Below, piece after piece: positions 18,757-53,930 of a DNA stretch of 64,000 nt. The notes below the pieces were generated by a model. It saw only the letters and a list, made by a program, of their open reading frames with translations. It was not told where the DNA came from and searched no databases. The stretch is from an uncultured Candidatus Saccharibacteria bacterium (GTDB taxonomy: Bacteria; Patescibacteriota; Minisyncoccia; Phycocordibacterales; Phycocordibacteraceae): the NCBI GenBank assembly GCA_964507275.1, contig CAZDPG010000001.1:20958-84957 (forward strand), in the 5' to 3' direction. The position numbers and the translations under genes are program-made. How positions within the stretch are numbered: the stretch's first letter is position 1; every line of letters starts with the position of its first letter.

Positions 18757-18795
18757 AATATTCTTACGAAAATTTTTTCGTAAGAATATTTTTTG
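18757..18795 (+). terminator. perfect 17-bp-arm palindrome plus T-run (terminator after murB)
   Basis: 'aatattcttacgaaaa|ttttttcgtaagaatatt' followed by 'ttttg'. Confidence 0.5.
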
Positions 18796-18804
18796 AAAGT
18801 TATC

Positions 18805-18895
18805 CACACATGAAAATTTTTTCGCACACAAAATATTTTTTACGCGCAATAATATCTTGTAGAAACGTTTGTGCATGAAAATTTTTTCAAGCGCG
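18805..18895 (+). promoter_or_regulatory. repeated 'atgaaaattttttc' A/T-rich motif (three related copies) upstream of small basic-protein ORF
   Basis: 'catgaaaattttttcgcacac' and 'gcatgaaaattttttcaagcg' about 60 nt apart, plus a related copy inside the upstream palindrome. Confidence 0.35.
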
Positions 18896-18938
18896 AACGG
18901 GTCGACTTATAAGTCATCATTTCTAATTCACAACCACC

Positions 18939-19034
18939 ATGGCCGCAAAGAAAAGAAAGGCAGTGAAGAAGACTGCAAAGAAGGCAGTCAAGAAAGTCGC
19001 GAAGAAGCGCAAAGCCGCTAAGAAGCGTTCCTAG
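18939..19034 (+). CDS. small lysine-rich basic protein (31 aa, histone H1-like / KAAKK-repeat)
   Basis: ATG..TAG ORF 'MAAKKRKAVKKTAKKAVKKVAKKRKAAKKRS', below the ORF-track size cutoff; own upstream motif and downstream hairpin. Confidence 0.45.
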   Translation: MAAKKRKAVKKTAKKAVKKVAKKRKAAKKRS

Positions 19035-19044
19035 TTTCAAAAAA

Positions 19045-19090
19045 GAAAGACACCGTTTGCCGAAAGGCGAGCGGTGTTTTTCTTTTTAGA
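19045..19090 (+). terminator. putative rho-independent terminator
   Basis: 'gacaccg...cggtgtc'-type stem followed by 'tttttctttttag'. Confidence 0.4.
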
Positions 19091-19123
19091 CTGAAATGAG
19101 TCGTCATGGTATAGTGCAGTGTC

Positions 19124-21646
19124 ATGTTCAGTCTCTCTTCGTTATTCTCAAAGAACCAATCCGCGGCCTTCTTGAAGGCCGCGGCACCGGTCGTCGTAAA
19201 GACGAATGGTTTTGCCGCCGAGCTCGTGGCTCTTTCGGATGATGAACTCAGAGTGCGCATCGCTGAGCTGCGCGCCCGCGCGACGGCTGCCGGCGCGACG
19301 GCGAAAGACGACATTCCGCTCGTGTTTGCCCTTGTACGAGAAGCCTCTCGCCGCACGCTTCGCCAGCCGCATTTCGATGTGCAGATGATGGGAGGTCTTG
19401 CGCTACTCGAAGGGAAGATCGCCGAGATGCGCACGGGTGAAGGAAAGACGCTCGTTGCGACTCTGCCGACGACCTTTCACGCGCTTTCCGGTCGCGGCGT
19501 GCATGTCGTTACGGTGAACGACTATCTTGCTCGTCGTGACGGTGCATGGATGGGACAGGTGTATGCCTTCCTCGGACTCTCAGTTGGCGTTGTGACGAGC
19601 ACGGGAGCATACCTCTATGACGCGTCGCATGTCGCTCAGGAGGAGGATGCCGAGCGCGATGCTGCGGGCTCGTTTAAAGTGTTCTACGACTATCTGCGCC
19701 CTGCGACGAAGAAGGAAGCGTATGCTTCCGACATCACCTATGTTACGAACAATGAGCTCGGTTTCGACTATTTGCGCGACAACACCGCCTATGACGCCGC
19801 ACAAATCATGCAGCGCGGGCACCACTATGCGGTCATCGACGAAGTGGACTCCATCCTTATCGACGAGGCGCGCACGCCGCTCATCATCAGCGGCCCGGCT
19901 GGTGATTCGCAGAAGCTCTACGAGCGTTTCTCGGGCATCGTCAGGTCGCTTGAGGAGGGCCGAGACTATACTATCGACGAGAAGCAGAAAGCAATTCAGC
20001 TCACGGAAGAGGGTATCCGCTCTGCCGAGGTCGCGCTTGATCTCGAGAACCTCTATGCCGAGGGTGGGATGAAATACGCGCACCACCTAGAGACGGCTGT
20101 GCGGGCGCAGGCGCTTTTCCATAAAGACAAGGATTACATCGTACGCGACAACGAGATCATCATCGTCGATGAGTTCACAGGACGGCTCCAGCCGGGACGT
20201 CGCTGGTCAGATGGCCTGCATCAGGCTATTGAGGCAAAGGAAGGAGTCCTGGTACGGGAAGAGACGCGGACCTACGCGACGGTCACGTTCCAGAATCTTT
20301 TCCGTATGTATGAGCGGCTCGCGGGTATGACCGGGACGGCGCTTTCTTCTGAGGAGGAATTTTATACGGTGTATGGGCTCGAGGTCGTCGTCGTGCCGAC
20401 CAATAAGTCGGTCGCGCGCAAGGATTTCGATGATCTCATCTTCCAGACTGCCGCAGGGAAGTACCGCGCGGTCGCCCGAGCAGTGAAGGAGCGGCACGAG
20501 AAAGGCCAGCCGGTTCTCGTTGGTACGGTTTCCATCGAAGACAATGAAATAGTCAGTCGCTACCTTTCTGAAGAGGGTGTGCCGCATGAGGTGTTGAATG
20601 CGAAGAATCACGAACGCGAGGGGGAGATTATCGCTGGTGCAGGCGAAGAGGGTCGCGTGACCGTGGCCACGAACCTTGCAGGACGCGGTGTCGATATTAA
20701 GCTCGGCGGTGCGTTCGCGGACGCCGAGTCGCGTGCAGCAGTCCTCGAGAGGGGCGGTCTCGCTGTCATCGGTACGGAGCGGCATGATGCCCGCCGTATT
20801 GATAACCAGCTACGTGGGCGATCCGGTCGTCAGGGCGATCCGGGTGAGACGCGTTTCTATGTGTCGCTTGAGGACAAACTGATGCGTGTCTTTGCCTCAG
20901 AGACCTTGAAAAAAGTGATGGGCCGTTTTGGTATTCCTGAGGATGAGCCGATAGAGAGTGCGATGATTACAAAGTCGCTTGAGACCGCACAGGGACGCAT
21001 CGAAGGGTTCAACTTCGACGCTCGAAAGCAGGTGCTTGCGTATGACGACGTGATGAATACGCAGCGCCTTGCTGTTTATGCGCGCCGCCGCGCCGCCCTC
21101 CAGGGGACGGATTCTGAGATGGAAGCACTCATCCGCGGTCTTCTCGAAGGATCTGATGACGCTCTTCAGGCGTTCGAGGCAAAGAAGGTTGAGTTCGGAG
21201 ATTCTTTCGTGCCGCACCTGCGCCGCCTCCTTCTGCAGGTCATAGACGTGTTCTGGCTCGAGCATCTTGAGACTATGGACTATCTTCGTCATTCGGTATC
21301 GCTCCGGGCATACGGTCAGCGTGACCCGCTTATCGAGTATCGTCGCGAAGGCCTCATTCGTTTCCGCGCACTTGAGGCAAATATCAAAGCATCGGTTACG
21401 GAGATGCTCCCGCGGCTCGAAGGAGGAGACGATGAACGCCGTCGACGCGAAGAGGAGGCGACGCGCGCGCAGTTGGTGGCCGCAGGGCGAGAAGAAGAAA
21501 GTTCTCCTTCGCCAGTTAAGAAAGCTATTGGATACGGGCGCAACGATATTGTCGTTATCAAGAAGGGCGATGAGACGAAAGAGCTTAAATATAAGAAAGC
21601 CGAACCATTTCTTGCAGAAGGCTGGGAGATTGTGAGCCGGGATTGA
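19124..21646 (+). CDS. secA: preprotein translocase subunit SecA
   Basis: DEAD-motor motifs ('GEGKTLVATLP', 'DEVDSILIDEARTPLIISG', 'TNLAGRGVDIKLGG') over 840 aa; extended -10 'tggtatagt' 8 nt upstream of ATG. Confidence 0.95.
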   Translation: MFSLSSLFSKNQSAAFLKAAAPVVVKTNGFAAELVALSDDELRVRIAELRARATAAGATAKDDIPLVFALVREASRRTLRQPHFDVQMMGGLALLEGKIAEMRTGEGKTLVATLPTTFHALSGRGVHVVTVNDYLARRDGAWMGQVYAFLGLSVGVVTSTGAYLYDASHVAQEEDAERDAAGSFKVFYDYLRPATKKEAYASDITYVTNNELGFDYLRDNTAYDAAQIMQRGHHYAVIDEVDSILIDEARTPLIISGPAGDSQKLYERFSGIVRSLEEGRDYTIDEKQKAIQLTEEGIRSAEVALDLENLYAEGGMKYAHHLETAVRAQALFHKDKDYIVRDNEIIIVDEFTGRLQPGRRWSDGLHQAIEAKEGVLVREETRTYATVTFQNLFRMYERLAGMTGTALSSEEEFYTVYGLEVVVVPTNKSVARKDFDDLIFQTAAGKYRAVARAVKERHEKGQPVLVGTVSIEDNEIVSRYLSEEGVPHEVLNAKNHEREGEIIAGAGEEGRVTVATNLAGRGVDIKLGGAFADAESRAAVLERGGLAVIGTERHDARRIDNQLRGRSGRQGDPGETRFYVSLEDKLMRVFASETLKKVMGRFGIPEDEPIESAMITKSLETAQGRIEGFNFDARKQVLAYDDVMNTQRLAVYARRRAALQGTDSEMEALIRGLLEGSDDALQAFEAKKVEFGDSFVPHLRRLLLQVIDVFWLEHLETMDYLRHSVSLRAYGQRDPLIEYRREGLIRFRALEANIKASVTEMLPRLEGGDDERRRREEEATRAQLVAAGREEESSPSPVKKAIGYGRNDIVVIKKGDETKELKYKKAEPFLAEGWEIVSRD

Positions 21647-21776
21647 TGATCGAGCATTCTTGTTTTAGTACGATAGCAAAACTGCGAATATGCTAGATAA
21701 ACACGCAATCTGTCAGGTTTTTGCTTTTGAAGCACTATGAGTGTATGATAATATCATACTAAATCATAGTACTTAT

Positions 21777-21986
21777 ATGTCTACTCTCTCTGTTCCACTT
21801 ACTCCCAAGCTTGAAGAGTTTATCAATCAGCAAGTGAAGAGCGGCCGCGCCGCCAACAAGGCTGATGTTGTCCGTCGTGCTCTCATCGCGATGACAGAAG
21901 AAGAGGCTGTTCAGGAGGTGCTTAACGCATCACGGGAACCCCTCATGCGAGGAGATCTTCAAGAGTTGATGAAGAAGCTCCGATAA
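21777..21986 (+). CDS. type II antitoxin, ParD/CopG ribbon-helix-helix family
   Basis: 'LSVPLTPKLEEFINQQVKSGRAANKADVVRRALIAM' matches the ParD antitoxin pattern; directly upstream of a RelE/ParE-like ORF. Confidence 0.6.
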   Translation: MSTLSVPLTPKLEEFINQQVKSGRAANKADVVRRALIAMTEEEAVQEVLNASREPLMRGDLQELMKKLR

Positions 21987-22003
21987 GCACGAGAACCAAA
22001 GTC

Positions 22004-22264
22004 ATGCTCACTATCTCCTTCAAACCCTCGTTTCTTAGAAAAATGAACCGGCTTGATGCTGACCTTCGAGAAGAGGCTATAGAGAAAATAAATCTTCTCA
22101 AAGACATCAAGAATCATCGGCTTCTAAGGGTTCATAAATTGCACGGACCGCTTTCGGACTGGTTCAGTTTCTCGGTCAATTATAAAGCGCGAATTGTATT
22201 TGAATATGTTTCTAAAACAGAGGTCGCCCTCCTCTCTATCGGCGATCACGATGTGTATAACTGA
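22004..22264 (+). CDS. type II toxin, RelE/ParE family
   Basis: 86 aa, 'HKLHGPLSDWFSFSVNYKARIVFEYV...EVALLSIGDHDVY' RelE/ParE-fold pattern; forms a pair with the upstream RHH ORF. Confidence 0.6.
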   Translation: MLTISFKPSFLRKMNRLDADLREEAIEKINLLKDIKNHRLLRVHKLHGPLSDWFSFSVNYKARIVFEYVSKTEVALLSIGDHDVYN

Positions 22265-24934: not shown

Positions 24935-24990
24935 ACAGGGTTGTGTATAAGCTCTTCTCTACAAGCCGAGATATGGCTATAATGCAATAC

Positions 24991-25785
24991 ATGGATGAGA
25001 TTCTTATAGAAGAGAAGAAGTATGTATCGTCGAAGCAAGCCGCAAAAATGACCGGGTATGCTAAGGATTATATCGGCCAGCTCTGTCGAGAAGGACGTGT
25101 CCCGGCGCGGCTCGTTGGGCGTAGTTGGTATGTCCTCGAGTCGGCAATTCAGGATCACCGCTTCGGGAATCAAGAAGCAGAAATGCATTCTGTGCAGCCA
25201 TCCTCAGCCACTTCTTTGACTCAGACGTGGGAGTCGACGCGATATGAGTCGTCTAATACAGAGACACTCCCGTCTCTAAACCTCCTACAAAAGGCAGAAA
25301 TGGCCTCTGAAGCTGAAAAAGAAGAAGAACACGATGCTGTGCAGCTCTCACAGCTCCATGACTCGTGGAGGGCGTGGTTTGATCATGTTGAGGATGCTTC
25401 TGCGCCAATCGAGGAATCCGTTCAGGCCCCTGTTTTAACCGCTGCAATAGGAGAGAAAGAAGAAAAGAGCGTTGAAAGAACGGGAGAAGAAGTAACCGTA
25501 CCGCTTCATATTGTCGCCGAGAAGCGCTCTCTTAGAGAAGTTCTACCAATAGAGAAGGTAAAGGTAGTGGAGAAGAAGGAAGAGGTTATAGTGCAGGTAA
25601 ATCACGAAGATCGTGAAGAGATCCGTAGAGGAGTCAGTATTTCGAGTCTTGTACATGCTTTCGTTGTGCTTATTGCCGTGATTTCTGGATCGCTTGCAGC
25701 AGCAGGAAGTGGGTATTTCGATTCCTTTTTCATATCGAATAGCCAAGCAGCAGTTATATCAGGAATCTCAGTGGTAAATAAATAG
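24991..25785 (+). CDS. hypothetical protein with N-terminal HTH-like domain (paralogous to giant-protein N-terminus), Glu/Lys-rich middle and C-terminal TM helix
   Basis: 'SSKQAAKMTGYAKDYIGQLCREGRVPARLVGRSWYVLESAI' aligns with 'DASELSGYTSDYLARLVRSGEIQGKRIGHSWVISSASL' of the 26397 ORF; TATAAT 8 nt upstream of ATG. Confidence 0.4.
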   Translation: MDEILIEEKKYVSSKQAAKMTGYAKDYIGQLCREGRVPARLVGRSWYVLESAIQDHRFGNQEAEMHSVQPSSATSLTQTWESTRYESSNTETLPSLNLLQKAEMASEAEKEEEHDAVQLSQLHDSWRAWFDHVEDASAPIEESVQAPVLTAAIGEKEEKSVERTGEEVTVPLHIVAEKRSLREVLPIEKVKVVEKKEEVIVQVNHEDREEIRRGVSISSLVHAFVVLIAVISGSLAAAGSGYFDSFFISNSQAAVISGISVVNK

Positions 25786-26396
25786 CGTATATATTCGATT
25801 TCTTGTCTCGGATATCCGAGCTAATGATATAGAGATAAAAACTGATTACAGAGAACACTATCGCAAGATAAGGTATACATTTATATAGCTTGGTTGCTAC
25901 AAGGGTCCTCATAAGAGTCCCTCGCATAGATCGATACTCATCCATGAGCATGGGAAGAATAGATTTACCTGTGATAAATAAGATTTATCACATATATGAG
26001 CATCAGACGGCTATACATACTTATATATAGGTATGTATAGCTAGGCATCTGGTATACGGAATAAGTATATGTATCCTATGTAGTTCGTATATCCGGAGCG
26101 ATATACATGCGTGCTTCTGCATATATAGTAAAGTTCGTTTTTGCACGATATTTTTTGCATCGAATGGATGAAGATCATGATTTTAACACCGATGATCTTT
26201 CTTAATGCGGTTTTAACGGCAAATCCCACATAATTTTCTGCTGTCAGAGGTGATACATTCGGCGAAATTTTTTGCATTTCGTTGTAAATGAAAAATGAGA
26301 TTAGTTGTGCGTCGTGATGTGTGATAATTATCCACACCATTTTCGTAGGGAGTGCCGAAATAGTAAGTTATTATTTAGTTAATTCGGCTATCCGAC
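25786..26396 (+). promoter_or_regulatory. AT-rich 0.6-kb leader with multiple perfect palindromes upstream of the giant gene
   Basis: Palindromes at 25807-25820 (ctcggatatccgag), 25971-25991 (gtgataaat aag atttatcac), 26010-26041 (gctatacatac ttatatata gtatgtatagc), 26171-26199 (aagatcat...atgatctt); visibly lower GC than flanks. Confidence 0.45.
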
Positions 26397-29300
26397 ATGA
26401 ATCACTCCCTCAAAGAAAATTTAATAACGACGAAGGATGCGAGTGAGCTTTCAGGATACACTTCAGACTATCTTGCGCGTCTTGTTCGATCGGGAGAAAT
26501 ACAGGGAAAGAGAATTGGACATAGTTGGGTCATCAGCAGTGCGTCGCTCGAGACCTTCATGACCAAACAGAAAGGTCGTAAGCTCGATCGAGCGCGTGAG
26601 CTCGCGAGCTCACGCGTGCGCGAATACAATAGGCACAATCAGTTCGTGCAGCGTACGACGCGTGCGTTGACAGAAAAGATTTCAGTACCGAAATTCAGAC
26701 TTGAGGAGATTTCGATTCGCTCACATTCGCTCGCGCTTGGAGTGGCGCTCGTAGTTGTTGCACTAGGTGCTGTTGGCGCAAATGCCGCAGCTCTGCCGCA
26801 AGTCGCGCAACGAGCATCAGCACTCGCCACAGAAATTTCTTCAGGCTTCGTCGACACGTTCGGTGATGTTCCGACACGCATCGCTGTGCGCATGGAAGAG
26901 GCACGCATCGCTGTGCGAGCAGATGCGACACGAAATGCACTTGCGTCTCGTCGCGCAGGATATGTTGCGTCACCAGTTCTCGCATCGATTGATCTCGAAA
27001 CTTTGCGAACAGTACTTGTGAAAGAATATCGCGCACCGCGCGCGACATCTGACATTGCATTCTCGTCGTCGCGCACTGACGCACCGATCCTGACTGTCAC
27101 CGATGTGTACGCATCAGTTGCCGGTGCGTATGAATTCTTCGCGAATCCCTCAAACATCGGCACGACTCTTACCGATGCGTACTTTGCGATCGGTACTGAT
27201 GCGTACGCAGCAGTCGATGCATCATTCTCCGCCTACCGTACTCTCATTGATGCCTCAGGGACACCGATGCTCGCAGCCGCTGCGACGACGCGCGATGCAC
27301 TCGCGCACATGCCGCGTCTTGTCGCTCAAGTGAACTTAGCACTCGGCGAGGCAGTTATAAAAGCGACACATGCGGCAATACGCACTGACGTGATTGCCGC
27401 GCATGGTCTTGCTGCCGCTGCTCCGGAGAGCGCCCGTATCGCCGTCACACTGATGGGTTCTACAGGCGATACTCTCGCTCGCGCCGCAGAGCAAGTGCCT
27501 GCACGCGTCGCCACCGCGTATTTGAACGCGACGGCGGTACCGGCAGTACTCGCTCCTCGACTCGCGCAGGCCGTGTTCAACGCGGAATACTCCATAGCTG
27601 ACCGCTTCGTTTCTGTTACGAACGTCGCAAGCGAGCGCTACTTAGCGCTTGTCGAAGGGACGGGAGATATCGCGTATGAGAGCTCCACGAACGCCCGTTC
27701 GATAGTCCAGTCAGCTTCGCGCACGATTGCTTTCGCTCCTGCTGCTCTTGAGGACGTTACGCTCGGAACGCTTGGCAAGAGTGCCGCAGCCCTCGATTCG
27801 GTGACGCATCTCTCATCATTCGCAGCCGTGCTGCCGGCGCTCTCTGCGAGCGAGAAGACGGCACTCGCGGTCTATGAGGCGATACACTCAGCCTTCGACT
27901 CTGCGAATAGGACGCTCGTCGCATTCTTCACTACTACGCCGGAGACGGTGCTCCCGACCGGCGTGCCGAAGGCGCGCGTCATTGCTGTCGCAACATCGAC
28001 CCGTGCGGTCTCTTCCGGGACGCAGCCGGTAACCACTCTTTCGTATCCGACGTACACGACCGTGGTACGCGGCGTATCGGAAGACTTCGTGAATCAGTCG
28101 CTCGCATCGCTTCGCACGAATGTACTTGCGACGGTCGCGGGCATGATACAGCCGGTCAGCAGCCAGGTCGTCCAGAACATCACGACAATCCAGCAGTTGA
28201 ACCGGATCGACAGTCTGCATGACCTCGTAGTGCAGAATGGCGACTTCCGCAACAGCATATTCGACAATGGCATTAGAGTGAACGCGCGCGATGGCTATTT
28301 CGATAACCTTACTGCTGGTACGACGACGCTCGCTACCACCACGGTCAATGGCACTCTTACGATAAGCTCGCTCACGCTCACAGGCTCCCTCTCGAGTCCG
28401 GGCTCTATCACTGGTAGCTACTTCGTCTCGACGAGCACGAATGCTACCTCGACGTTCGCAGGATCGATCAACATCGATAACGCTGGCTTCGTCTATGCGA
28501 CATCGACACGCAACGTCGGTATCGGCGTGCTCTCTCCCGCTGCGCTCATCGCCGTGCAGAACAGCACGTCGACGCAGCCGATATTCGTGGCAAGCAATGC
28601 CGCCGGAGCGGAAGTATATCGCCTTACGAATGACGGATTCGTCGGTATCGGCACGACATCGCCTACCTACAATCTCGCTGTCGAGGGCTCATCGACGCTT
28701 GGTAATCAAGCGATTGCTGGATACTTCACTGCGACTACGACAACAGCTACCTCGACATTCGCTGGCTCGTTCACCGTCGGTACGGACAAACTGGTCGTCA
28801 ATTCGACGACCGGGAACATCGGTATCGGGACGACGAGTCCGTATCAGAGGCTCTCGGTGGCGGGGAATGTCATCGCGGACACGTTTATCGCCACCTCGAC
28901 CACAGCCACCTCGACATTCGCCGGTGGGTTCGCTGTAGAGACGGACGGTCTAGTCTATGACTACTCGTCAAATAATGTTGGTATCGGGACGGCGTCGCCC
29001 GCGAACGCAAAGTTAGATATTCGTGAAAGTGCTTCTGGGGCGTACGGCATAAAGTTGACGAACAGGAACGCCACTCGGACATGGGGGATTGCTACTGATG
29101 TTGGTGCCGTTAACGACAACAAATTCGGGATATTTGATGTCACGAGCGGAGGAGCTCGGCTGACTATTGATACGAGTGGTTATGTTGGTATCGGCTCGAC
29201 GAGCCCGGCACAGAAACTTGTCGTGAGCGGAAATATCCTTACGGACAACGCTAATAACAATCTTAGTGCGTATAACATAATCAATCGCCCTACGAACGCG

Positions 29301-32300
29301 ACGTATGATGCGGCGAATTGGTATCAAACCGCTGGAGTAAGCAAATGGATTGCTGGGTTGCTAGCAGCATCTTCCGGCGGCACGGCGAATGCGGATGACT
29401 ATTCGATCGCTTACTACAATGGCTCCTGGAATAACGCAGTTACGATTAACAGTTCTGGTCGCGTTGGCATCGGCACCACCAGCCCTTCCGGAACCCTCGC
29501 AGTCGCTGGCGACTTCTTCCTCACCGGTTCCACCACCATTACGGGCGCCGACTCCGGTATCGTCTTCACCGGCTCCGGCAACCACGACATCACCGCCGCC
29601 GGTGGTACGCTCCGCATCGGGACCAATACCATCATCGGCAACATCGAGGCGCTCAACGATACGGTGGATATCGGTACCGCCATTACCCGCTTCGACAAAA
29701 TATACGCAAACGAGGTCAACGCCTCCACTATCGTCGGTACGCTCACAGGCGGCAATCTCAGTGCCGAGACCTTCACCATCAACTCCGACAACGCCACAGC
29801 AGACACGGAGAATGCCTATCTCGTCTTCGAGCGAGGCACGATCACTCCGAACGCGTCCCTCGCCTGGAATGCTGCTGAGGGCGCGAAGCGCTTCGAATTC
29901 AATCATCCGCTGTTCATACAGAACGCTTCTGCCTCGACGACGCTCACCACGCTCGATCTCAAGGCCGTCGCCGGGCAGACTGCCGATATTTTCCGCGTAG
30001 CTTCCTCATCGGCGGATACTCTCTTCAATGTTACGGCCTCTGGCAACGTCGGCATTGGCACCACCTCTCCGTATCAGAAGCTCTCGGTAGTAGGGAATGT
30101 CATCGCAGACACATTCATTGCGACATCGACCACAGCCACTTCGACGTTCGCGGGCGGGTTCGCTGTAGAGACGAGTGGCCTGGTCTACGACTACTCCTCA
30201 AATAACGTCGGTATCGGGACAGCGGGCCCGAGCAAGAAGTTATCAGTAGCCGGAGATGTGCTCATCGGAACTCCAAGTGGCAGCAGTGACGTAAGGTTGC
30301 TGGTAGGTCGCGCGGATGGTGTGGGAGACGGCATCGTAACGGCCACAAACTTCAATGCTGTGACAGTACCAGTATTTCGTGCCAGGTCTGGAACTAGTCC
30401 AACAGGAGATGGAATATATTTATTCTACGGTCAAAATGTAGCCAATACGAAAACATTCAGTGTCGATAATTCAGGAAATGGTTATTTTGCTGGCAACGTC
30501 GGCATTGGCACGACGAGTCCGACCACATTGCTTTCGTTATCGCAAACCACCGGTCCAATCATCACATTAGAAAATAGAAACACCGCCCTCGCTGCGGGTG
30601 AGCAAATCGGCGGGTTGAGCTTCACTGCGAATGATTCGAGTGGTGGTGGTACAGGTGAAATGGCAAAGCTGATTGCCTACACGCAAGCCATATCCAGTGC
30701 ATTTGGGAATCTCGGATTCTATACAAGAGATCGAGTCGGCGTTGACTCTCTGAGTGAGAAGATGACGATTCAGTACAACGGGAATGTCGGCATCGGCACC
30801 ACCTCTCCATATCAGAAACTCTCGGTGGCAGGGAATATCATTGCGGACACATTCATCGCAACATCGACCACGGCGACCTCAACATTTGCCGGTGGGTTCG
30901 CCGTCGAGACGAGCGGTCTGGTCTACGACTACTCGTCAAATAATGTCGGCATCGGGACGGCGGGGCCTGAATCGAAACTCTCTGTTTTACGGTCACCCTC
31001 CGATATATTGGGAGAAACCTCGATAGGATTGAATTACGGCGCGGGAGATCTATGGGGGATGAGACTAGGTTCAACTGATAGCTACGATTTCCATCTTGAT
31101 AGGAAATCTGGTAGCACGTGGCTTCAAGCACTATCCATCGATAGAACATCCGGCAACGTCGGCATTGGCTCTACGAGTCCGATGAGTAAACTGAGCGTGG
31201 TGGGCGAATCAAGAATCACCGGTGTCGATTCCACATTTGGTGCTGATGCGAATGCGAGAACATCTCTGCATATCAATGCAAATACCGGGTCTCTTGCCGA
31301 AGTAGCATATGAATCTGCGGGTTCGTTGAGGTGGAAAGTTGGTAAGAATTCCACAACCGAATCGGGATCGAATGTGGGATCAGATTTCTACTTCAATCGC
31401 AGAAGCGACACAGGGACTGATTTGGGTACAGCGATGTTGATTCAGCGTTCTACGGGCAACGTCGGCATCGGGACCACGAGTCCAGCCAGCAAGCTTAATA
31501 TATATGCTGGAGCATCTGGCGGTGGGGCGAATACAAGCGCCCCACTAACAGTCGAAAGCAATACAACGGCGTTTATCGGACTGCTCACCCCAAATGCTTC
31601 CGCAAGTGGCATTCTTTTCGGAAATGTCTCAAACAATGCCGCTGGCGGGATTCTCTATAACTCAGAAGTCGCGAATGGTCTTTCGTTCCGTGTGAATGGG
31701 AATAGTGTGAAGATGGTTATCAATTCATCTGGAAATGTCGGCATTGGGACGACTACCCCGATTGCTCCGTTGTCTGTTTTATCCGCATCATCTGCCGATC
31801 AGTCCCTAGCTCAATCCTGGAGTTATAACTCTGGTGCCGATTTGTATAATCTCAAACTGAAGCAAATAGTAACCTCAGGGGTTGTAAAGTGGGGTTTTGA
31901 TATACAGAATGCAGGCACTTCGTATTCCGATGTCCTGATACTTGATCGTGGCAATGTCGGTATCGGGACGACAAATCCGCAGAAGATGCTAGACGTATCG
32001 ACATCTACTGACGCCACGCTCCGGCTGACCTCCACCAAGAATGACTCGAGCTGGACCAGTAATACGGATACCGCGGGTGTCCTTGAGTTCTATAAGACCG
32101 ATGCTTCGGGGGGAGGCGCCGATGTCGTAGCAAGCATCAAGCCGATTGTGCAGAATACTGCAGGTAGCGAATGGGATCTCGGCTTCTCAGTCGGGGAGAC
32201 GCTCGCCGAGCAGTTCAGAATAAGCGATGCCGGATATCTTGAGAGTCCAACAACGGCGAAGTTCATCTTCAACGACGTGTCTGGAGGAGTTCTTCAGCTC

Positions 32301-35300
32301 AGACGGGAGGATCTCACCGTGGCAAGCGGAGAGACGATCGGCGAGCTCGATTTCTTGGGGACTGACGCTTCGACAAACATGGCAGGAAATCTTGCGAAGA
32401 TCCTGGTGGCGGCGGAAGCAGACCAGTCAACAAGCGCTGCGACCTATATGGCCTTCCATACTAATACCGGGAATGCCGGTTCACTTGCAGAGGCTATGCG
32501 CATCTCGAGTACCGGTAACGTCGGCATCGGCGTAACGGCACCTGCCATCAGATTATCAATAAAGGATTCTTCATCCCAGACTGCCTACACAACATCGAGT
32601 TCTGCGGCCGCAAACCCCTTCGTGGTGCAGACGACTGAGGTCGCGAGCGGCTCCGGCTATGCCGCTCTGCAACGGTTTTATGGAGGTCTTGGGAATAGCA
32701 TCTGGTATCAGGGCCTCGTCGATAATGGGGTTGCCTTTGGTGGCTCCTACGTTATCGGGAACAGGACTGGTGCGGCCGCGTATCAGGAACAACTGAGGAT
32801 CACCAGTACCGGGAACGTCGGTATCGGGACATCGACACCGAATACGAAATTGAACGTACTCGGTAGCAGTGGAACTCAATATTCAAACTCTATTGCAAAG
32901 TTTTACGCGGCCGCTACACAGGGTGTATATATTGGGTACAACACAACCGATAAATACGGATATATTGGGGCGGTTACGGAAGGAGTAACGCACGATCCTC
33001 TGGTCTTAGAACCATCTGGAGGCAACGTCGGCATCGGCACCACGAGTCCGGCAGATATCTTAGATATCTATTCCGCCGCTACTAATAGAGTCTTCCTTCA
33101 AGCGAGTACATCAGTTGGATACGCAGAATATGGTCTGTCGGCGGACCAAGGGAGGGGTAGTCGTTCGACCTTAATCCAGTATGGTTCAGCCCATGCGACA
33201 CTACCGAATGCTTTACAGCTTTTGAATTTTAATAATGCCGATTTAGCACTTGGGACAAATAATACTCGGAGGGTGACAATTTCCGGTAGCGGTCTTGTGG
33301 GTATCGGGACGACGACACCAGCGGCGAGGTTAGTGGTTTCAGAAACAATTTCACAAACGGCGATATTCGATAGCACTTCAGCGTCAGGTCCATACATAGC
33401 ATTCTCTTTAAATGGTACAAGGAATGGATACTTGGGGAATGGCGGCGCACTTGGAAACTCTGCTTCAGTCATTACACTTAGAAGTGAGGGAGATCTTGCC
33501 CTTAATACTGGTACTACCCCTCGACTGTACGTCACGAACACAGGTAACGTCGGTATCGGTACGTCGACGCCAGAGAGACTGTTGCAAGTTCATGGGACTA
33601 ACACGGAAGTGGAGTTGTCTTCAGGGGCTGATGAGTATGCTCGGCTGTATTTCAGGAATGGGGATGGAACTGGAGAAGCAGGCAGGAAGTGGTTGATGGG
33701 GCAGTACGGTGGTTCAGCAGGAAATCCTTTCGTGTTTACATATGCCGCTTCCACAGGAAGTAACTGGGTGGATGCTCTTGCAATAACCAACACGGGGAAT
33801 GTCGGCATCGGAACGACGAGTCCAGGTGTTAATTTGGTCGTCGCTGGGTCAGGACACGTATATAGCAGAGTCGATACAACAGGGACATCCCATGTCGCCG
33901 GCTCCTATCTCACGACTCCGACAACCGAATTGGACTTCATGAGCTTCGGCGGGTACAGCACTTCCCGATTCAGTACTTCCACAGTGGGGTACAGCGCCGC
34001 ATATGCGGTAACTGGCGGCTTGATGTTAGGGACGTATGGTGCTTCCGATGTGATTATCGGTTCAAACAATACTGACAGGATCCACATACTCAGCACAGGT
34101 AACGTGGGTATCGGAACAACGAGTCCTGCTGGGACATTGCAGCTCGGCGGTTCCGCCCCTCATTTCCTTATCGGTACTGGTGCGGATGTCTTGGCAGGTG
34201 GACAGGCTGGCCTTTTGATTAGCAATGGAACAGAAAAAGTTATAAGTGGCGTACAGTCGTCTCTTGGCTTTATTGGCACATATTCAAATACGAAATTCGG
34301 CTTGGCCACCAACAACTCTACGAAAGTCACGATAGATACGACTGGCTACGTCGGCATCGGTACCACAAGTCCAGCGGATACTTTGGATGTGAATGGTGGC
34401 GTGAGAGTCATGGGCCAGGGAACGCTTGGTTTCGGAGCCGGAATGGAATTTTCATATAATTCCACGACGGGAGGCGGCATAACGACTTACGACAGAACAG
34501 GGTCGGCATTCAAAGATTTGAACGCGAATGCTCTCAGTTATCATTTCCTAACAAGTAGTGCTGAAAAGGTAACCATATTAAATAGTGGCAACGTCGGTAT
34601 TGGTACGTCGAGCCCGGGGAATTTGTTGCAACTGCATAGTGCAAGCAGTAATCCGGGGGTTTGGATGTCTGGCGGAACAATAACACAACCGTTTACTAGT
34701 GTTGGGTTCACACCGGAAATTAACGCCAATGTAAGTGGAACTTGGGGTCAATCAAATGCTACTTATGGAGGTCTGCAAGTAAATTCTTTTACGACAAATG
34801 GTAATGCAAACACGATAGGGTTGACGTTACAGGGACATATCGGGTCAGCGTCTCCTTCTGATGACGCACCAGCTATTGTTATAGCTGGCTGGAAGAGTAA
34901 CGGTAGTACAGGCCGTTCGGCGATGTCAGGGACGAACACTGTGTTACAAGTGAGAGCTGGGTCAACGAATTTGGTCACAGTTCAAGGTTCCGGCAACGTC
35001 GGCATCGGCACGACAACACCTGCAACCGCTCTTCAGATAAATACATCTTCACTAGAAGTGGCGCGTTTGGTGGGGACGAATGCAACAGGCGGATATCTAT
35101 CATTCTTTGGGAACACGTCCACAGTGTCTGGCTTCCTCGGAAGTGATGGTGCGGTGAGCGGTGGAGGAGGGGCAAGCGTGTCTGACTTCGGGTTCAGAAC
35201 ACCAGGGGGTATGGTATTCAGGACAGGAGGCGCGGCGGCGCGCATGACGATATTAAGTACCGGTTATGTCGGCGTCGGGACGACCACTCCTACGGCAGCG

Positions 35301-38300
35301 CTCCACGTGAACGGAGGAGATATGCACTTCGGAGACAGTACCAATGTTGCGCGCAACTTCTACGCAATCCGGAATGCTGTCGCTGTGGGAGGCTTCTCGA
35401 CCTCTAACAGCGTCTTCTCTTTGTTCGGAGGTGCGGTGGCAACACCCATGCTCACTCTTATCGGATCCGGCAATGTGGGTATCGGAACAGCGGCACCGGC
35501 AGCGATGCTCGAGATTGCCACGACCACGACCGATGGTGCGACACTTCGTCTCACGAACTCCGACACCGCGGTTGCCGCTGGGGAGGCTCTCGGTTCCTTG
35601 GACTTCTATTCGTCTGATGCTTCGACAAGTGGGGCGGGCATCAGGGCATACCTGAAAGCAGTGGAAAATGATGGAGGAGTCGGCCGCTCCTATGATTTGG
35701 CGCTTGGTACTGGTGCGGCAGCGGCAGCAACCGAGAAGCTGCGCATCACGAGCAGTGGCAACGTCGGTATTGGGACGACGACGCCTGGTGCAAAACTGCA
35801 AATAGGAAGCAGTTCGGTCACCCCTGTGGCTTCCGCGACGCCAGACGCTATCTCGCTGGGTAATATGTACAGCACAACCGCCGGGAGCAACCTAAAACTA
35901 AAGGTGTATGAGTCGGGAAGTGTCAGTCTCGGTTTGGGGGTGAGCGCTCTCTCTCTTGATGTTGTGGCAGGACAGACAGGTGCAGGTATTAACTTCTACA
36001 CTAACGCCGGAAGTACGGCGAAGATGACTATCAGTTCGACTGGCAACGTCGGCATCGGCTCAACGACGCCAGGAAGCTTGCTAAGCGTACTTAATTCGGC
36101 GTTAACGACATACGCTACCAGTGTTATTTCCTCAAGCGTTTCCTCTCTCGAGACGGTGAACAGCAGCAATGTAAGCGGGCAAACTTCAACCCTCAAACTC
36201 AGGGCAAGCAGCAATGGCGGTACGGTTGCAGGCATTGCCGGAATAAGCGCTGTTCAGACAGACTGGACGGCCAATTCTGCTGACATCGCGTTTCAGACGA
36301 ATAGCCTGGGTGCTATCGGTGAGAGAATGAGAATAACAGCGGCCGGTAATGTGGGCATCGGCTCCTCTACTCCTGTTAGCAAATTATCAGTGGCAGGGAC
36401 AGGTGACATCACGGCTGAAATTCAGACGACCTCTAGTACAAATGCAGCAGGTATTAAACTCACTGGCGGTACTCAGACCTGGGGTGTCTATTCCATAGGA
36501 AGTTCTGGTGTTAAAAGCGGAGCTCTTGGCTTCTATGATCACGGGTCATCAGCATGGAGACTTCTTCTTGATAATGCAGGCAACGTCGGCATAGGGACGA
36601 CGAGCCCGCTCCATATGCTGAGTGTGACAAACCCTTCTGGGTCGGGGACAAACTTGTATGTCGCTCAGTTCGCGTCTAACGCGGGAGCAAATGTTCCGCT
36701 CGTAGCCTATTCTGACTCGGCAGGTTCGGCTATTGTAAACCAAACGGGCAGCCTGACTGGTGCGGAGTATATATATATGAGCCAGGCCGGCAACATGACC
36801 TTCAATACTGCGGGTTCTGAGCAAATGAGGATCACGAGTACCGGCAACATCGGCATCGGCACGACGACGCCATCTGCAAAACTGCATATCCTCGATACCA
36901 CGAGTGTGTCTACGAGCGGACAAACCGCATTGGTCGTAGGCTCGACCTATAGCGCAGGCACGGTCGGGAGCGGCGGCAAGATATTGTTTGAAGATCAATC
37001 GACCGGCACTGATAGTGCTGCGATTAGAGGCTACACCTTTGGGTCTTCCAAGACTGGTCTGGCCTTTGATACCGGGTGGGGCGCCCTCACAACGAAGATG
37101 GTGATAGATAATTCGGGCAACATCGGCATCGGCACCACCTCGCCATACAGCAGACTCTCGGTCTGGGGCGCAGACACGACAGCGGGTGTGAATATGTTTG
37201 AGCTCACCAACTCCGCTTCGACGACGCTCCTCTCTATGGATAACGCGGGGAACTTGAACGTGCCGGTCGCCACCGCGACGACGACGCTCGGCGGGGGATT
37301 AAACGTGAACTCGGGCGGTCTCGTTTATGACCTCACTACGGGAATCACGTCTGCCGCTAACTTGAGTCTCGGCGCGACGACCTTCGATACGGATGCGGGA
37401 GTGGTGCAGTGGGTGGATATGCCGGTCACCTCCGCTTCTGCCTCTGGCACCGTCGAGAGCTACACGGCCTCGCTCAACGCGAACCCGATGCTCACCGTCT
37501 ACGGTCTTGCTGATGGCATAGGCGGCATGACGAATCTCGGCGTGGGTATCGGCTCAACGAGTCCGTGGGCAACGCTCTCGGTGACCACTGCGGCTCAGCA
37601 GTCGGGCCTCTTGCCGCTCTTCCAGGTCGCTTCGACGACGAATGCAGAACTCTTTACGGTCAATGGGAACGGGAATGTCGGCATCGGCACAACCTCGCCT
37701 GACACGATACTTACTGTTTTCAACTCTGCTGCCGCAAGTGCAAGTGGGGAAAATACCCTGAAGTTGTCTGCGGACTACCATGGAAATGTTATTGGCAGTG
37801 GCGGACGCATGGTGTTCACCAACAATGCCGTGGATTTAGGGAAAGAAGCGGCAGACATACGCGGATATACATTTGGGACCAACCTGACAGGTCTCGCGTT
37901 TGGTACAGGGTATGGAGCGGTCACTACAAAGATGGTTATAGACAATGCGGGGCTTGTCGGCATCGGCACCACCTCGCCATTCGCTAAACTCGCTGTTCAA
38001 GCGACCGCTGGTGGCTCGACCCCTCTCTTCACGATCGCATCATCGACGAGTGGCGCGGCCACCTCGACGGCGTTCCATGTCGCAAGTAATGGAAATGTGG
38101 GTATTGGGACAGCAAGTCCGGGGGCGAATCTTGAAACTTTCGGAGGAATTAATGCTCTCCCTACGGCATCTGGTTCTGTAAATGAAGCGGGTATTAGAGT
38201 TAGAGGTGGGGGAAATGTTGTGAGTCTTGATTTCGGTAGTAAGAGTGCTGGCCCAGCTTCTTCATGGATTCAGTCAAGAAACGCGACTGATTATTCTACA

Positions 38301-44518: not shown

Positions 44519-44731
44519 ATGAGCGACACTTATTACATCAAGAATTTAACATGCGCTTATTGCGGCAAGGATAACGACTTTGAAGAGGAGTCAGCGAAAT
44601 TCGGCAATGTCGGCCTGCCATATGCTTTTGAGTTTGGCGGGGAGTTTGTCTGCAATGGGTGCAAGAAGGAGAATAAGATAGTGATGGATTTTGTTGCTGT
44701 TAAATCTGAGTCGCACAGGAAGTCGGAATAA
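44519..44731 (+). CDS. small Cys4 zinc-ribbon protein (hypothetical)
   Basis: 70 aa with 'CAYCGK...CNGCKK' pairs; sits immediately upstream of MazF-like gene; could be its partner. Speculative. Confidence 0.3.
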   Translation: MSDTYYIKNLTCAYCGKDNDFEEESAKFGNVGLPYAFEFGGEFVCNGCKKENKIVMDFVAVKSESHRKSE

Positions 44732-44735
44732 GGTT

Positions 44736-45185: not shown

Positions 45186-45224
45186 TACTCCCTCAGAACA
45201 AAAAGTCAATGCAGGTGTGGATAA

Positions 45225-52277: not shown

Positions 52278-52321
52278 CGTTTGCCACCCGACCGGATTCA
52301 TAAAGGAAGTATACTTACGAC

Positions 52322-53904: not shown

Positions 53905-53930
53905 CTAAACATGATGTATACTTTCCGTAT

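What the first reader, a model, noticed from the sequence alone, without database searches (positions are those of the whole stretch)
25786..26396. AT-rich, palindrome-dense 0.6-kb leader in front of the giant gene
GC drops sharply relative to both flanks. At least four perfect inverted repeats are present: 25807-25820, 25971-25991, 26010-26041 (11-bp arms) and 26171-26199. The run of 'tatacat'/'tatatag' words resembles stacked operator sites and suggests the fibre gene is under tight, possibly multi-input, transcriptional control. The HTH-like N-domains of the flanking 24991 and 26397 proteins are candidate binders.
Basis: seen in the sequence. Interest (0 to 1): 0.5.

Follow-up and report, generated by a model that had tools for sequence, protein, structure and literature searches.

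The report
Multi-site control region of giant gene
The AT-rich 611-bp gap in front of a 4,407-residue surface-protein gene of an uncultivated Patescibacteria bacterium is a real, evolutionarily conserved transcription-control region: a core promoter, a DnaA-box-like site, three copies of an operator-like motif and curved DNA, although most of the palindromes first flagged are not themselves the conserved parts.

Summary
Observation confirmed: 25786-26396 is exactly the gap between an HTH_17 membrane-protein gene and the giant gene. GC is 0.36 against 0.50-0.56 in the flanks, and there are five perfect inverted repeats where about 1 is expected.

Comparison with about 90 orthologous gaps (Paceibacteria genomes and metagenomes) shows a conserved architecture rather than conserved palindromes:
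- The last 69 bp form a core promoter: TTATCCACA box, 32 bp, then -10 TATTAT, then a 16-nt leader made of the quasi-palindrome TCGGCTATCCGA. The box moves only by +10 bp.
- A second copy of the operator-like site (26084-26095) lies inside a degenerate copy of the promoter core. Its distance to the start codon varies among relatives in 10.5-bp steps.
- A third copy (25807-25820) follows the upstream stop codon.
- The TATACAT/TATATAG words belong to a conserved, often palindromic motif.
- The AT-rich spacer carries helically phased A/T tracts, significant for the family but not for this window alone.

No RNA family, covariation, terminator or conserved ORF was found. The box is about 60-fold enriched upstream of HTH_17-led genes.

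Best reading: a promoter with an upstream factor site and phased auxiliary operators in bent DNA, probably looping. The binding proteins are not identified. I rate it a new variant of a known kind, of moderate interest.

The parts
24965..24993 (+). Promoter and leaderless start of the upstream HTH_17 membrane protein: GCCGAGAT, 5 nt, TATAAT, 7 nt, ATG at 24991. It shares the GCCGARAT element, and in relatives a TTrTnCACA box, with the giant-gene promoter.
25786..25822 (+). Module C with site O1: TATATAT, then TCTTGTCTCG-GATATC-CGAG, which includes palindrome 25807-25820. It lies 15-35 nt after the upstream stop codon.
   Evidence: Conserved in about 65 of 78 metagenome loci and in the GTDB orthologues. 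No difference from the 95.7%-identical strain. No significant covariation, Fisher p = 0.32.
25823..26021 (.). Hypervariable tract: 36 of the 43 intergenic differences from strain L162 fall here.
25875..25888 (+). Extra copy of motif M (ATACATTTATATAG). Seen only in this species.
25964..25979 (+). Conserved motif TTTACCTGTGAWAAAT (family consensus TACCTGTGAAAAATAG), overlapping the left arm of palindrome 25970-25992.
   Evidence: ACCTGTGA occurs in 14 of 76 gaps against 0.17 expected, at a nearly constant distance of about 430 nt before the ATG. The palindrome itself is not conserved.
26010..26041 (.). 32-bp palindrome containing motif M (ATACTTATATATAG, 26017-26030; family consensus CATACCTATATATAGGTAT).
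   Evidence: M is on the + strand in 17 of 73 gaps against 0.36 expected, between -297 and -463, and is often palindromic in relatives.
26057..26095 (+). Module A', a degenerate second copy of the promoter core: CGGAAT (26057-62), -10-like TCCTAT (26074-79), GTAG, and site O2 TTCGTATATCCG (26084-95).
   Evidence: Aligned with orthologues. O2 is found in 19 of 80 gaps, and its distance to the ATG follows a 10.5-bp ladder. No difference from L162.
26087..26106 (.). Palindrome GTATATC-CGGAGC-GATATAC, overlapping O2.
26102..26129 (+). Third TATACAT...CATATATAG pair. The consensus scan also calls it sigma-70-like (TATACA, 16 nt, TATAGT).
26138..26343 (.). AT-rich spacer with A/T tracts at 26138, 26151, 26181, 26211, 26232, 26265, 26291, 26326 and 26340. 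It includes the direct repeat CGAWATTTTTTGCAT at 26146 and 26263.
   Evidence: Helical phasing of the tracts is shown for the family; for the window alone it is not significant.
26171..26199 (.). Palindrome AAGATCAT-N13-ATGATCTT. It is not conserved and shows 4 differences from L162.
26328..26336 (+). TTATCCACA box, identical to the DnaA-box consensus, 32 bp upstream of the -10.
   Evidence: Conserved in about 78 of 80 orthologues. Its position is bimodal, -68/-70 or -78/-80 from the ATG. It is about 60-fold enriched upstream of HTH_17 genes.
26346..26374 (+). Core promoter P1: -35-like TAGGGA (26346-51), a 17-bp spacer containing the conserved GCCGAAAT (26354-61), and -10 TATTAT (26369-74).
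   Evidence: The -10 is TAnnnT in all orthologues. The same -10 type lies 6-8 nt before the leaderless starts of other genes in this genome.
26381..26396 (+). Predicted 16-nt leader. The transcription start at about 26381 is inferred, not mapped. The leader contains site O3, TCGGCTATCCGA (26384-95), which is also the right arm of the inverted repeat GGAGTGCCGAAAT/AATTCGGCTATCC that flanks the -10.
26397..39620 (+). Giant gene (4407 aa): N-terminal MerR/excisionase-like winged helix, long helix, transmembrane segment at about residues 105-135, GNVGIGTTSP repeats, a Peptidase_S74 chaperone domain and an N-intein at the end.

Best explanation
The 611-bp gap is the transcription-control region of the giant gene, and it acts as DNA.

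- Core promoter P1 (last 69 bp): a weak -35-like TAGGGA, a 17-bp spacer and -10 TATTAT. Transcription is predicted to start near 26381, giving a 16-nt leader without a Shine-Dalgarno sequence.
- Upstream factor site: a TTATCCACA box lies 32 bp upstream of the -10. Because it can be displaced only by a whole helical turn, it is read as a site for a factor that must face the polymerase.
- Operator-like sites: the quasi-palindrome YTCGGNTAYMCGAS occurs three times. O3 occupies the leader, at about +4 to +15. O2 lies about 300 bp upstream inside a degenerate duplicate of the promoter core. O1 lies just after the upstream gene's stop codon. O2 keeps a fixed angular relation to O3 and the promoter across relatives, with spacing that changes in 10.5-bp steps.
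- Spacer: the intervening AT-rich DNA carries helically phased A/T tracts, so it is intrinsically bent.

The most likely mechanism is that a multimeric regulator bridges O2 and O3, perhaps with O1 and the palindromic TATATAG motif as further inputs. This would loop or wrap bent DNA around the promoter and set the expression of a very costly gene.

Shown: the elements, their conservation, their spacing rules and the A/T-tract phasing.
Inferred: the transcription start, looping, and whether control is positive or negative.
Unknown: the binding proteins. Candidates are the two adjacent membrane-anchored HTH_17 proteins and DnaA.
For: - Synteny: GatB, the HTH protein, a long AT-rich gap and the giant gene occur in that order in at least 15 GTDB species. 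The gaps are 303-845 bp with GC 0.24-0.48, against 0.42-0.67 in the flanks.
- Sequence conservation: only the last ~70 bp, and about 38 bp after the stop codon, are conserved at 80-100% DNA identity, while the flanking proteins are about 40% identical.
- Core promoter: the -10 is TAnnnT in every orthologue. The genome is largely leaderless, with TAnnnT 6-8 nt before the ATG.
- Box phasing: the box sits at -68/-70 in 54 sequences or -78/-80 in 24, and nowhere else.
- Uniqueness: TCGGNTATCCGA occurs in the 64 kb only at 25808 and 26384, and the full promoter-proximal 20-mer occurs once.
- Second promoter copy: module A' and O2 are aligned across lineages.
- O2 spacing: the periodogram of O2-ATG distances over 7-16 bp peaks exactly at 10.5 bp (R 0.73, p 4e-5). 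With the modal cluster collapsed, R is 0.77 and p 8e-4; simulation gives p 7e-4.
- A/T tracts: periodicity of 10.25 bp with z 13.4 in 68 dereplicated gaps, and none in two control sets from the same genomes. The tracts are phase-coherent relative to the box (n 737, p 2e-13).
- Close strain: a 95.7%-identical strain has no differences in P1, A'/O2 or O1, against 35 in the 329 unannotated bases.
- Shared elements: the upstream HTH gene's promoter has a TTrTnCACA box and GCCGARATA in common with the giant-gene promoter.
- Box and HTH_17 genes: 32 of 83 HTH_17-led genes in 1.2 Mb carry the box within 160 nt upstream, against 0.6% expected.
- Against an RNA reading: no Rfam match, no + strand terminator, and no covariation.
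Against: - There are no transcript data. The start site, promoter activity and any read-through from the upstream gene are all inferred.
- O2 is detectable in only about a quarter of the orthologous gaps. The ladder rests on about 12 independent spacings, is not corrected for phylogeny, and has one outlier (309).
- The absolute face relation cannot be fixed, because 299 bp is 28.5 turns at 10.5 bp per turn.
- A/T-tract phasing is significant for the family but not for this window alone.
- In this window the -10-like hexamer of A' is TCCTAT, which is poor for a promoter.
- The inverted repeat around the -10 would also form a -19 kcal/mol hairpin in any read-through RNA.
- The metagenome set was selected by the O3+ATG pattern, so O3 invariance in that set is by construction. 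The 15 synteny-selected loci are the independent evidence, and about 13 of them keep O3.
- No regulator has been linked to any site.
Confidence: 0.6

Rival explanations
1. RNA-level element. The gap is transcribed, either by read-through from the upstream HTH gene or from an internal start, as a long structured leader or a small RNA, and the palindromes act as RNA hairpins. In particular, the hairpin GGAGUGCCGAAAU/AAUUCGGCUAUCC would mask the start region in read-through transcripts.
For: - No intrinsic terminator follows the upstream gene.
- Both strands fold better than shuffles, with z -2.4 and -3.5.
- The P1 inverted repeat folds at -19 kcal/mol, z -3.7.
- Several arm variants are G-U-compatible.
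- Two stem changes in strain L162 would be wobble pairs on the minus strand.
Against: - No Rfam match even at E = 10.
- No significant covariation at the only freely varying pair of the P1 repeat (p = 0.06, uncorrected) or in module C (p = 0.32).
- Both arms are conserved as sequences.
- The whole-turn displacement of the box, the 10.5-bp ladder and the A/T-tract phasing are properties of double-stranded DNA.
Confidence: 0.15
2. Only the proximal promoter is functional. The rest is a fast-evolving AT-rich spacer in which palindromes arise from AT-biased, low-complexity sequence, replication slippage or recombination, without any regulatory role.
For: - The central sequence is not alignable between genera.
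- Palindrome excess is inconsistent among orthologues: 0 in L009 and L018, and 32 against 13 expected in total.
- There is a hypervariable tract of 36 differences in 200 nt between two strains that are 95.7% identical.
- Palindrome 26171-26199 is decaying.
Against: - Length and AT-richness are conserved in all orthologues.
- Module C, the CCTGTG motif, motif M and A'/O2 are conserved at fixed positions and in a fixed orientation, far above expectation.
- Spacing periodicity and tract phasing are present.
- The annotated elements carry no differences from L162, whereas the unannotated remainder carries 35.
Confidence: 0.15
3. A replication origin or another DnaA-dependent replication element: an AT-rich unwinding region next to a perfect DnaA box.
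For: - A perfect TTATCCACA lies in the most AT-rich 0.6 kb of the window.
- Weaker box-like words (TTATCACA) occur in palindrome 25970-25992.
Against: - There is a single consensus box.
- Cumulative GC skew rises monotonically across the site.
- Genes are co-oriented on both sides.
- No dnaA or dnaN is present in the 64 kb.
- The box is locked at 32 or 42 bp from a -10 and a start codon in about 78 orthologues.
- The same box sits upstream of many HTH_17 genes.
Confidence: 0.02
4. A remnant of a small non-autonomous mobile element bounded by inverted repeats (25808-25831 and 26372-26395; 24 nt, 75% complementary).
For: Terminal inverted-repeat-like arms at both ends of the gap (pair I1).
Against: - There is no second copy in the window.
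- None occurs elsewhere in 1.7 Mb of related loci other than at the orthologous position.
- Both 'ends' are conserved in place across genera as parts of module C and P1.
Confidence: 0.02

Closest known systems
Multi-operator DNA-looping control regions (E. coli lac O1/O2/O3, gal OE/OI, araO2/araI, deo; from my own knowledge). Also the pLS20 conjugation switch, which uses DNA looping (PMC4207663, title and abstract seen).
   Same: There are several copies of one operator-like sequence, with one copy overlapping the start of transcription and auxiliary copies hundreds of bp away. The spacing obeys the helical repeat, and flexible or bent DNA lies in between.
   Different: No regulator is known. 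The sites are about 300 and about 580 bp apart. One auxiliary site sits inside a degenerate duplicate of the promoter core. The organism is an uncultivated, largely leaderless Patescibacteria bacterium, and the gene controlled is a 13-kb surface-protein gene.
DnaA boxes acting as transcription-factor sites (E. coli dnaA and nrdAB promoters, the B. subtilis DnaA regulon; consensus TTATNCACA; from my own knowledge).
   Same: The 9-mer is identical to the strongest DnaA-box consensus. In the paralogous promoter of the neighbouring gene, the fifth position varies freely (TTrTnCACA), as it does in DnaA boxes.
   Different: About 20% of orthologues have TTATCCCCA, which breaks the CACA core. The box is tied specifically to HTH_17-led genes and sits at a fixed 32 or 42 bp from the -10. 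DnaA binding has not been tested.
Intrinsically curved, phased-A-tract DNA upstream of bacterial promoters, and the high flexibility of poly(dA:dT)-rich DNA in looping (PMC3795714, seen).
   Same: The A/T tracts have 10.25-bp periodicity and are phase-locked to a promoter element.
   Different: The phasing extends over about 300 bp. It is conserved across genera without sequence conservation, and it is statistically visible only at the family level.
Membrane- or pole-anchored DNA-binding proteins: ToxR and CadC (membrane-bound activators; from my own knowledge), and RacA, BldC, TraN, Xis and MerR-type winged helices (structural neighbours).
   Same: Both flanking proteins combine a MerR/excisionase-like winged helix and a long helix with a transmembrane segment. 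Their promoters share the box and GCCGARAT.
   Different: The HTH_17 matches sit just above the Pfam cut-off (27.6-27.7 against 27 bits). The Foldseek E-values are weak (at least 0.02). No DNA target has been demonstrated.

Membership tests
Sigma-70-type promoter | -10 hexamer TAnnnT at a fixed position upstream of the gene | tested here: met
   The hexamer is TATTAT at 26369-74. In about 80 orthologues it is TATTAT, TACTAT, TATCAT, TAAACT, TAAAAT, TAGAAT or TATAAT, always T-A-n-n-n-T. The same element lies 6-8 nt before leaderless starts elsewhere in the window.
Sigma-70-type promoter | -35 hexamer about 17 bp upstream of the -10 | tested here: inconclusive
   TAGGGA (TAGGRR in many orthologues) lies exactly 17 bp upstream, but it is a poor match to TTGACA and is absent in part of the +10 class.
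Sigma-70-type promoter | Mapped transcription start | not testable with these tools
   No transcript data are available. The start near 26381 is inferred from the -10.
DnaA box / DnaA-regulated promoter | 9-mer matching TTATNCACA | tested here: met
   TTATCCACA lies at 26328-36. It is conserved in most orthologues, although about 20% carry TTATCCCCA.
DnaA box / DnaA-regulated promoter | Bound by DnaA | not testable with these tools
   No binding data exist, and dnaA is not in the window.
Chromosomal replication origin | Cluster of DnaA boxes, a GC-skew switch, and usually a dnaA/dnaN neighbourhood | tested here: not met
   There is one box, the cumulative skew is monotonic, and no dnaA or dnaN is nearby.
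Multi-operator DNA-looping region | Two or more copies of one operator-like sequence, one of them at the promoter | tested here: met
   TCGGNTATCCGA occurs only at 25808 and 26384 in the 64 kb, with a degenerate third copy at 26084. O2 is conserved in 19 of 80 gaps.
Multi-operator DNA-looping region | Inter-operator spacing constrained to the helical repeat | tested here: met
   O2-ATG distances form a 10.5-bp ladder (R 0.73-0.77, p 4e-5 to 8e-4). O1 shows no periodicity. The test is at family level and is not corrected for phylogeny.
Multi-operator DNA-looping region | A multimeric regulator that bridges the sites | not testable with these tools
   The candidates are the HTH_17 proteins, which have a long helix after the winged helix. 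No binding or oligomerisation data exist.
Intrinsically curved upstream DNA | A/T tracts repeated in phase with the helix | tested here: met
   For the family, the period is 10.25 bp with z 13.4, controls are flat, and the tracts are phase-coherent with the box at p 2e-13. For the window alone the result is not significant (z at most 2).
Cis-regulatory leader RNA / riboswitch / small RNA | Match to a described RNA family, or covariation supporting a structure, or a defined terminator | tested here: not met
   Rfam gave nothing at the gathering threshold and only microRNA noise at E up to 10. Covariation tests gave p 0.06 and 0.32. There is no + strand terminator.
Protein-coding small gene in the gap | A conserved ORF | tested here: not met
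   The 99-aa minus-strand ORF at 26041-26340 has no Pfam hit and is frameshifted by a 1-nt indel in the 95.7%-identical strain. tblastx among gaps finds only the promoter block.
Miniature mobile element | Terminal inverted repeats together with multiple dispersed copies | tested here: not met
   The region is single-copy in the window and is found only at the orthologous position in relatives.

The most novel reading that the evidence does not exclude
The cytoplasmic, membrane-anchored MerR/excisionase-like N-domains of the giant protein and of its conserved neighbour may themselves bind the box and/or the O1-O3 sites. In that case the locus would be looped and tethered to the membrane, and the nascent giant protein would feed back in cis on its own promoter, since O3 lies within 15 nt of its start codon. 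This would couple transcription, translation and membrane insertion of a 4,407-residue protein in a phylum where no regulatory circuit has been described. A variant is that the perfect DnaA box ties expression of this surface fibre to the replication cycle.
Probability: 0.15. Interest if true: 0.8.

Novelty: new variant of a known kind. Interest (0 to 1): 0.5.

Why it matters
Almost nothing is known about how Patescibacteria (CPR) regulate genes. In the paper library, no paper paired TTATCCACA with 'candidate phyla radiation', and none of the listed hits of a Patescibacteria/promoter-motif search mentioned Patescibacteria. This locus offers a concrete cis-regulatory architecture supported by comparison across genomes: core promoter, phased box, repeated operators and bent DNA. 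It sits in front of one of the most expensive genes of a very small genome, and it is shared across many Paceibacteria lineages. It also defines a candidate regulon, the HTH_17-led membrane proteins that carry the same box. Its predictions can be tested with short DNA probes, purified 100-residue domains and existing groundwater metatranscriptomes, without culturing the organism.

Tried and rejected
- RNA family or tRNA: Rfam at the gathering threshold found nothing, and at E up to 10 only microRNA and lncRNA noise over the big palindrome. ARAGORN found no tRNA.
- Protein-coding content: the 99-aa and 65-aa minus-strand ORFs have no credible family. The 99-aa ORF is frameshifted in strain L162, and tblastx among gaps found no conserved peptide.
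- Mini-ORF in the promoter spacer ((A/G)TG CCG RAA stop, Met-Pro-Lys): only 32 of 66 sequences have a start codon there, and the SD-like TAGGAG abuts it. I rejected it as a by-product of the GCCGAAATAG motif.
- RNA covariation: neither the inverted repeat around the -10 nor the module C hairpin shows significant covariation.
- Conservation of the flagged palindromes as palindromes: not consistent. Some orthologues have none.
- Replication origin and mobile-element readings: rejected.
- A/T-tract periodicity in the window alone: not significant.
- Periodicity of O1 spacing: none.
- Sequence search of the N-domain against the PDB: no significant hit.
- Literature searches for a described Patescibacteria promoter motif or a TTATCCACA/CPR link: nothing found.
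Full report
**What is there.** The window is a chromosomal segment of a Patescibacteria (CPR) bacterium of the Paceibacteria/Kaiserbacteria type.
- Around the finding lie murB, secA, a ParD/HigB-like pair, obg and gatB.
- The best GatB relatives in GTDB are Patescibacteria MAGs at up to 80% identity.
- The finding's coordinates are exactly the gap between two genes. Upstream is a 264-aa protein, whose real start is the ATG at 24991, with an N-terminal HTH_17 domain and a C-terminal transmembrane segment. Downstream is a 4407-aa ORF (26397-39620) with an N-terminal HTH_17 domain, a transmembrane segment, GNVGIGTTSP repeats, a Peptidase_S74 chaperone domain and an N-intein at its end.

- GC is 0.36 over 611 bp, against 0.50-0.56 in the flanks.
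- All four palindromes are present, and there is a fifth at 26087-26106.
- Perfect inverted repeats (arms of at least 7 nt, loops of at most 15 nt) number 5 against 0.77 expected. None of 300 shuffles reached that, and it is the highest density in the window.

**Orthologous loci.** GatB-anchored loci from GTDB show the order GatB, HTH protein, long gap, giant-gene homologue in at least 15 species.
- Every gap is long (303-845 bp) and AT-rich (GC 0.24-0.48, against flanks of 0.42-0.67).
- The flanking proteins are only about 40% identical. Even so, the last ~70 bp of the gap are 80-100% identical at the DNA level, as is a ~38-bp block right after the upstream stop codon. The centre does not align.
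- A metagenome scan with the 20-mer before the ATG returned 85 loci, about 78 of them true family members. One is identical to the window (L114) and one is a 95.7%-identical strain (L162).
- In the metagenome set the pattern itself is invariant by construction. The synteny-selected set is the independent evidence for its conservation.

**The proximal module (26328-26396) is a promoter.**
- The conserved block reads TTATCCACA, 32 bp, TATTAT, 22 bp, ATG.
- The hexamer is T-A-n-n-n-T in every orthologue (TATTAT, TACTAT, TATCAT, TAAACT, TAAAAT, TAGAAT, TATAAT).
- Elsewhere in this genome, the same kind of hexamer sits 6-8 nt before the ATG of secA, the HTH gene, rpe and other genes. Shine-Dalgarno sequences are almost absent, so leaderless mRNAs are the norm here.
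- The giant gene is unusual in keeping a ~16-nt leader. That leader is essentially the quasi-palindrome TCGGCTATCCGA (O3).
- A weak -35-like TAGGGA lies 17 bp upstream of the -10.
- The spacer holds a conserved GCCGAAAT, which forms an inverted repeat with the leader (AATTCGGC).

**The TTATCCACA box acts at the DNA level.** In 78 sequences it starts at -68 to -70 (54 sequences) or at -78 to -80 (24 sequences) from the ATG, and at no other position. Displacement by exactly one helical turn is what is expected of a protein site that must keep its face towards the polymerase.

**The box marks a gene class.**
- The box is identical to the DnaA-box consensus (my own knowledge: TTATNCACA).
- It is not a general promoter element. 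It occurs three times in the 64 kb, against 0.24 expected.
- In 1.2 Mb of related loci, 32 of 83 HTH_17-led genes carry it within 160 nt upstream, against 0.6% expected.
- The neighbouring HTH gene's promoter is conserved as TTrTnCACA, CTCTTCC, CAAGCCGAGATA, 5 nt, TATACT, 7 nt, ATG. It therefore shares the box type and the GCCGARATA element with the giant-gene promoter.

**The centre of the gap is not featureless.** With about 76 gaps, strand-specific k-mer enrichment and a subfamily alignment reveal the following:
- TACCTGTGAAAAATAG (window 25964-25979), about 430 nt before the ATG at nearly constant distance.
- Motif M, CATACCTATATATAGGTAT (window 26017-26030, inside the 32-bp palindrome, with a further copy at 25875). 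It is found in 17 of 73 gaps against 0.36 expected, is strand-biased, and is often palindromic.
- Module A' (26057-26095), a degenerate second copy of the promoter core: CCGGAAT, about 13 nt, TACTAT, rTAG, TTCGnnTATCCG.

Palindrome 26087-26106 overlaps the second copy (O2) of the leader motif. The first palindrome (25807-25820) is the third copy (O1), inside the conserved module TCTYGTCTYG-N6-CGAG. TCGGNTATCCGA occurs only at 25808 and 26384 in the whole window. By contrast, palindromes 25970-25992 and 26171-26199 are not conserved as palindromes, and the latter is already degraded in strain L162.

**Spacing rules.** O2 is found in 19 of 80 dereplicated gaps.
- Its distances to the ATG are 292, 301, 303, 309, 312-316, 323, 334, 346, 365, 386/387 and 397.
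- A Rayleigh periodogram from 7 to 16 bp peaks exactly at 10.5 bp (R 0.73, p 4e-5). With the modal cluster collapsed, R is 0.77 and p 8e-4. Simulation with uniform distances gives p 7e-4.
- O1 shows no such periodicity.
- The test is not corrected for phylogeny, has one outlier, and cannot fix the absolute face, because 299 bp is 28.5 turns at 10.5 bp per turn.

**Why the region is AT-rich.**
- In 68 dereplicated gap centres, A/T tracts (A4+, T4+, AnTn) show a sharp 10.25-bp periodicity (z 13.4 against Markov shuffles).
- Random segments and other AT-rich segments of the same genomes show none.
- The tracts are phase-coherent relative to the box across 75 gaps (n 737, R 0.20, p 2e-13, best period 10.25).
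- This is the signature of intrinsically bent DNA.
- For the window alone the signal is not significant. Its tracts, including the direct repeat CGAWATTTTTTGCAT at 26146 and 26263, fit only loosely.

**Close-strain comparison.** Against L162, the 43 differences in the gap avoid the annotated elements.
- None falls in P1, A'/O2, O1 or the third TATACAT pair.
- 35 fall in the 329 unannotated bases.
- 36 lie within 25823-26021, a hypervariable or recombined tract.

**RNA-level readings.**
- There is no Rfam match and no tRNA, and no + strand terminator.
- Both strands fold better than shuffles (z -2.4 and -3.5), as any palindrome-rich DNA would.
- The inverted repeat around the -10 would fold at -19 kcal/mol in a read-through RNA. 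However, both arms are conserved as sequences, and the one freely varying pair shows no convincing covariation (p 0.06).
- Module C shows none either (p 0.32).
- The RNA reading is not excluded without transcript data, but the helical-repeat rules point to double-stranded DNA.

**Candidate binders.**
- A single-sequence AlphaFold model of residues 1-105 of the giant protein is confident (pLDDT 84.6). It gives a strand, two helices, a two-strand wing and a long helix (residues 48-94) leading to the membrane segment.
- Its nearest solved folds are DNA-binding MerR/excisionase-type domains (TraN, MtaN, Xis, BldC, CarH, RacA, SoxR). Their E-values are weak (at least 0.02), with rmsd of 1.5-2.5 Å over about 50 residues for the small winged-helix matches.
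- The Pfam HTH_17 scores are just above the cut-off, and the NCBIfam excisionase scores are below it.
- The domains are plausible DNA binders and are statistically associated with the box. Nothing shows which protein binds which site, and DnaA remains an alternative for the box.

This is a multi-element transcription-control region, and multi-site control is the best reading. However, the conserved elements are a core promoter, a phased TTATCCACA box, three copies of an operator-like quasi-palindrome, a TATATAG motif and bent AT-rich DNA, rather than the palindromes as such.
- The most likely mechanism is a looped or wrapped nucleoprotein complex that sets the activity of promoter P1.
- Transcription start, looping and the sign of regulation are inferences.
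- It resembles classical looping operons and curved-DNA promoters, but it is undescribed for this phylum. I therefore rate it a new variant of a known kind, of moderate interest.

Noticed in passing
window 39330-42340: The giant ORF ends in the N-terminal half of an intein (C|VTGDTRL ... TTANHPFLA). The matching C-terminal half (VYDIEVDGTHNFV ... GIFAHN|T) begins the next large ORF (41959-43662, Ig-like domains). Three genes lie in between: an NYN domain protein, a PD-(D/E)XK nuclease and a 156-aa ORF. This looks like a naturally split intein, or an intein broken by an inserted nuclease cassette. If so, the fibre may be completed by trans-splicing.
   Followed up: partly
window 18757-19123: A second TTATCCACA-box region lies between murB and secA and is conserved in relatives. 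It reads box, ~39 nt, GATAAT, then AGAAACGTTTG. A 31-aa Lys/Ala-rich ORF follows (MAAKKRKAVKKTAKK..., 18939-19035), then a strong terminator-like hairpin. ATGAAAATTTTTTC occurs twice. The ORF may encode a histone-H1-like small basic protein or belong to an unrecognised RNA gene.
   Followed up: partly
window-wide, e.g. 19111-19126, 24978-24993, 52309-52324, 53917-53933: Most genes that have an upstream gap carry a TAnnnT hexamer 6-8 nt before the ATG and no Shine-Dalgarno sequence. The organism therefore appears to use leaderless mRNAs as the rule.
   Followed up: partly
window 25823-26021 against L162: Two strains that are 95.7% identical overall differ at 36 positions within this 200-bp tract. 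The flanking coding sequence and the rest of the gap differ by 0-3%. This is either a recombination tract or a local mutation hot spot.
   Followed up: partly
window 45170-45224, minus strand: A third TTATCCACA lies on the minus strand, with TATCAT 28 nt downstream. It points antisense into the end of the PemK/MazF-like toxin gene (44691-45185). It may be an antisense RNA promoter or a mis-called small gene.
   Followed up: no
orthologous gaps L083, L084, L088, L089, L097, L098, L105, L107, L125, L127, L155, L001, L005, L009-L011: A different subfamily of gaps carries, in place of the CCTGTG motif, a hairpin tCGCACAATGT...ACATTTTGCGAa. It has a conserved C-U mismatch, and its closing pairs switch between gtc/GAC and ttc/GAA. 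That is compensatory variation, which the window's own elements do not show.
   Followed up: partly
window 21741-22264: A ParD-like/HigB-like toxin-antitoxin pair sits between secA and obg in an otherwise housekeeping stretch.
   Followed up: no
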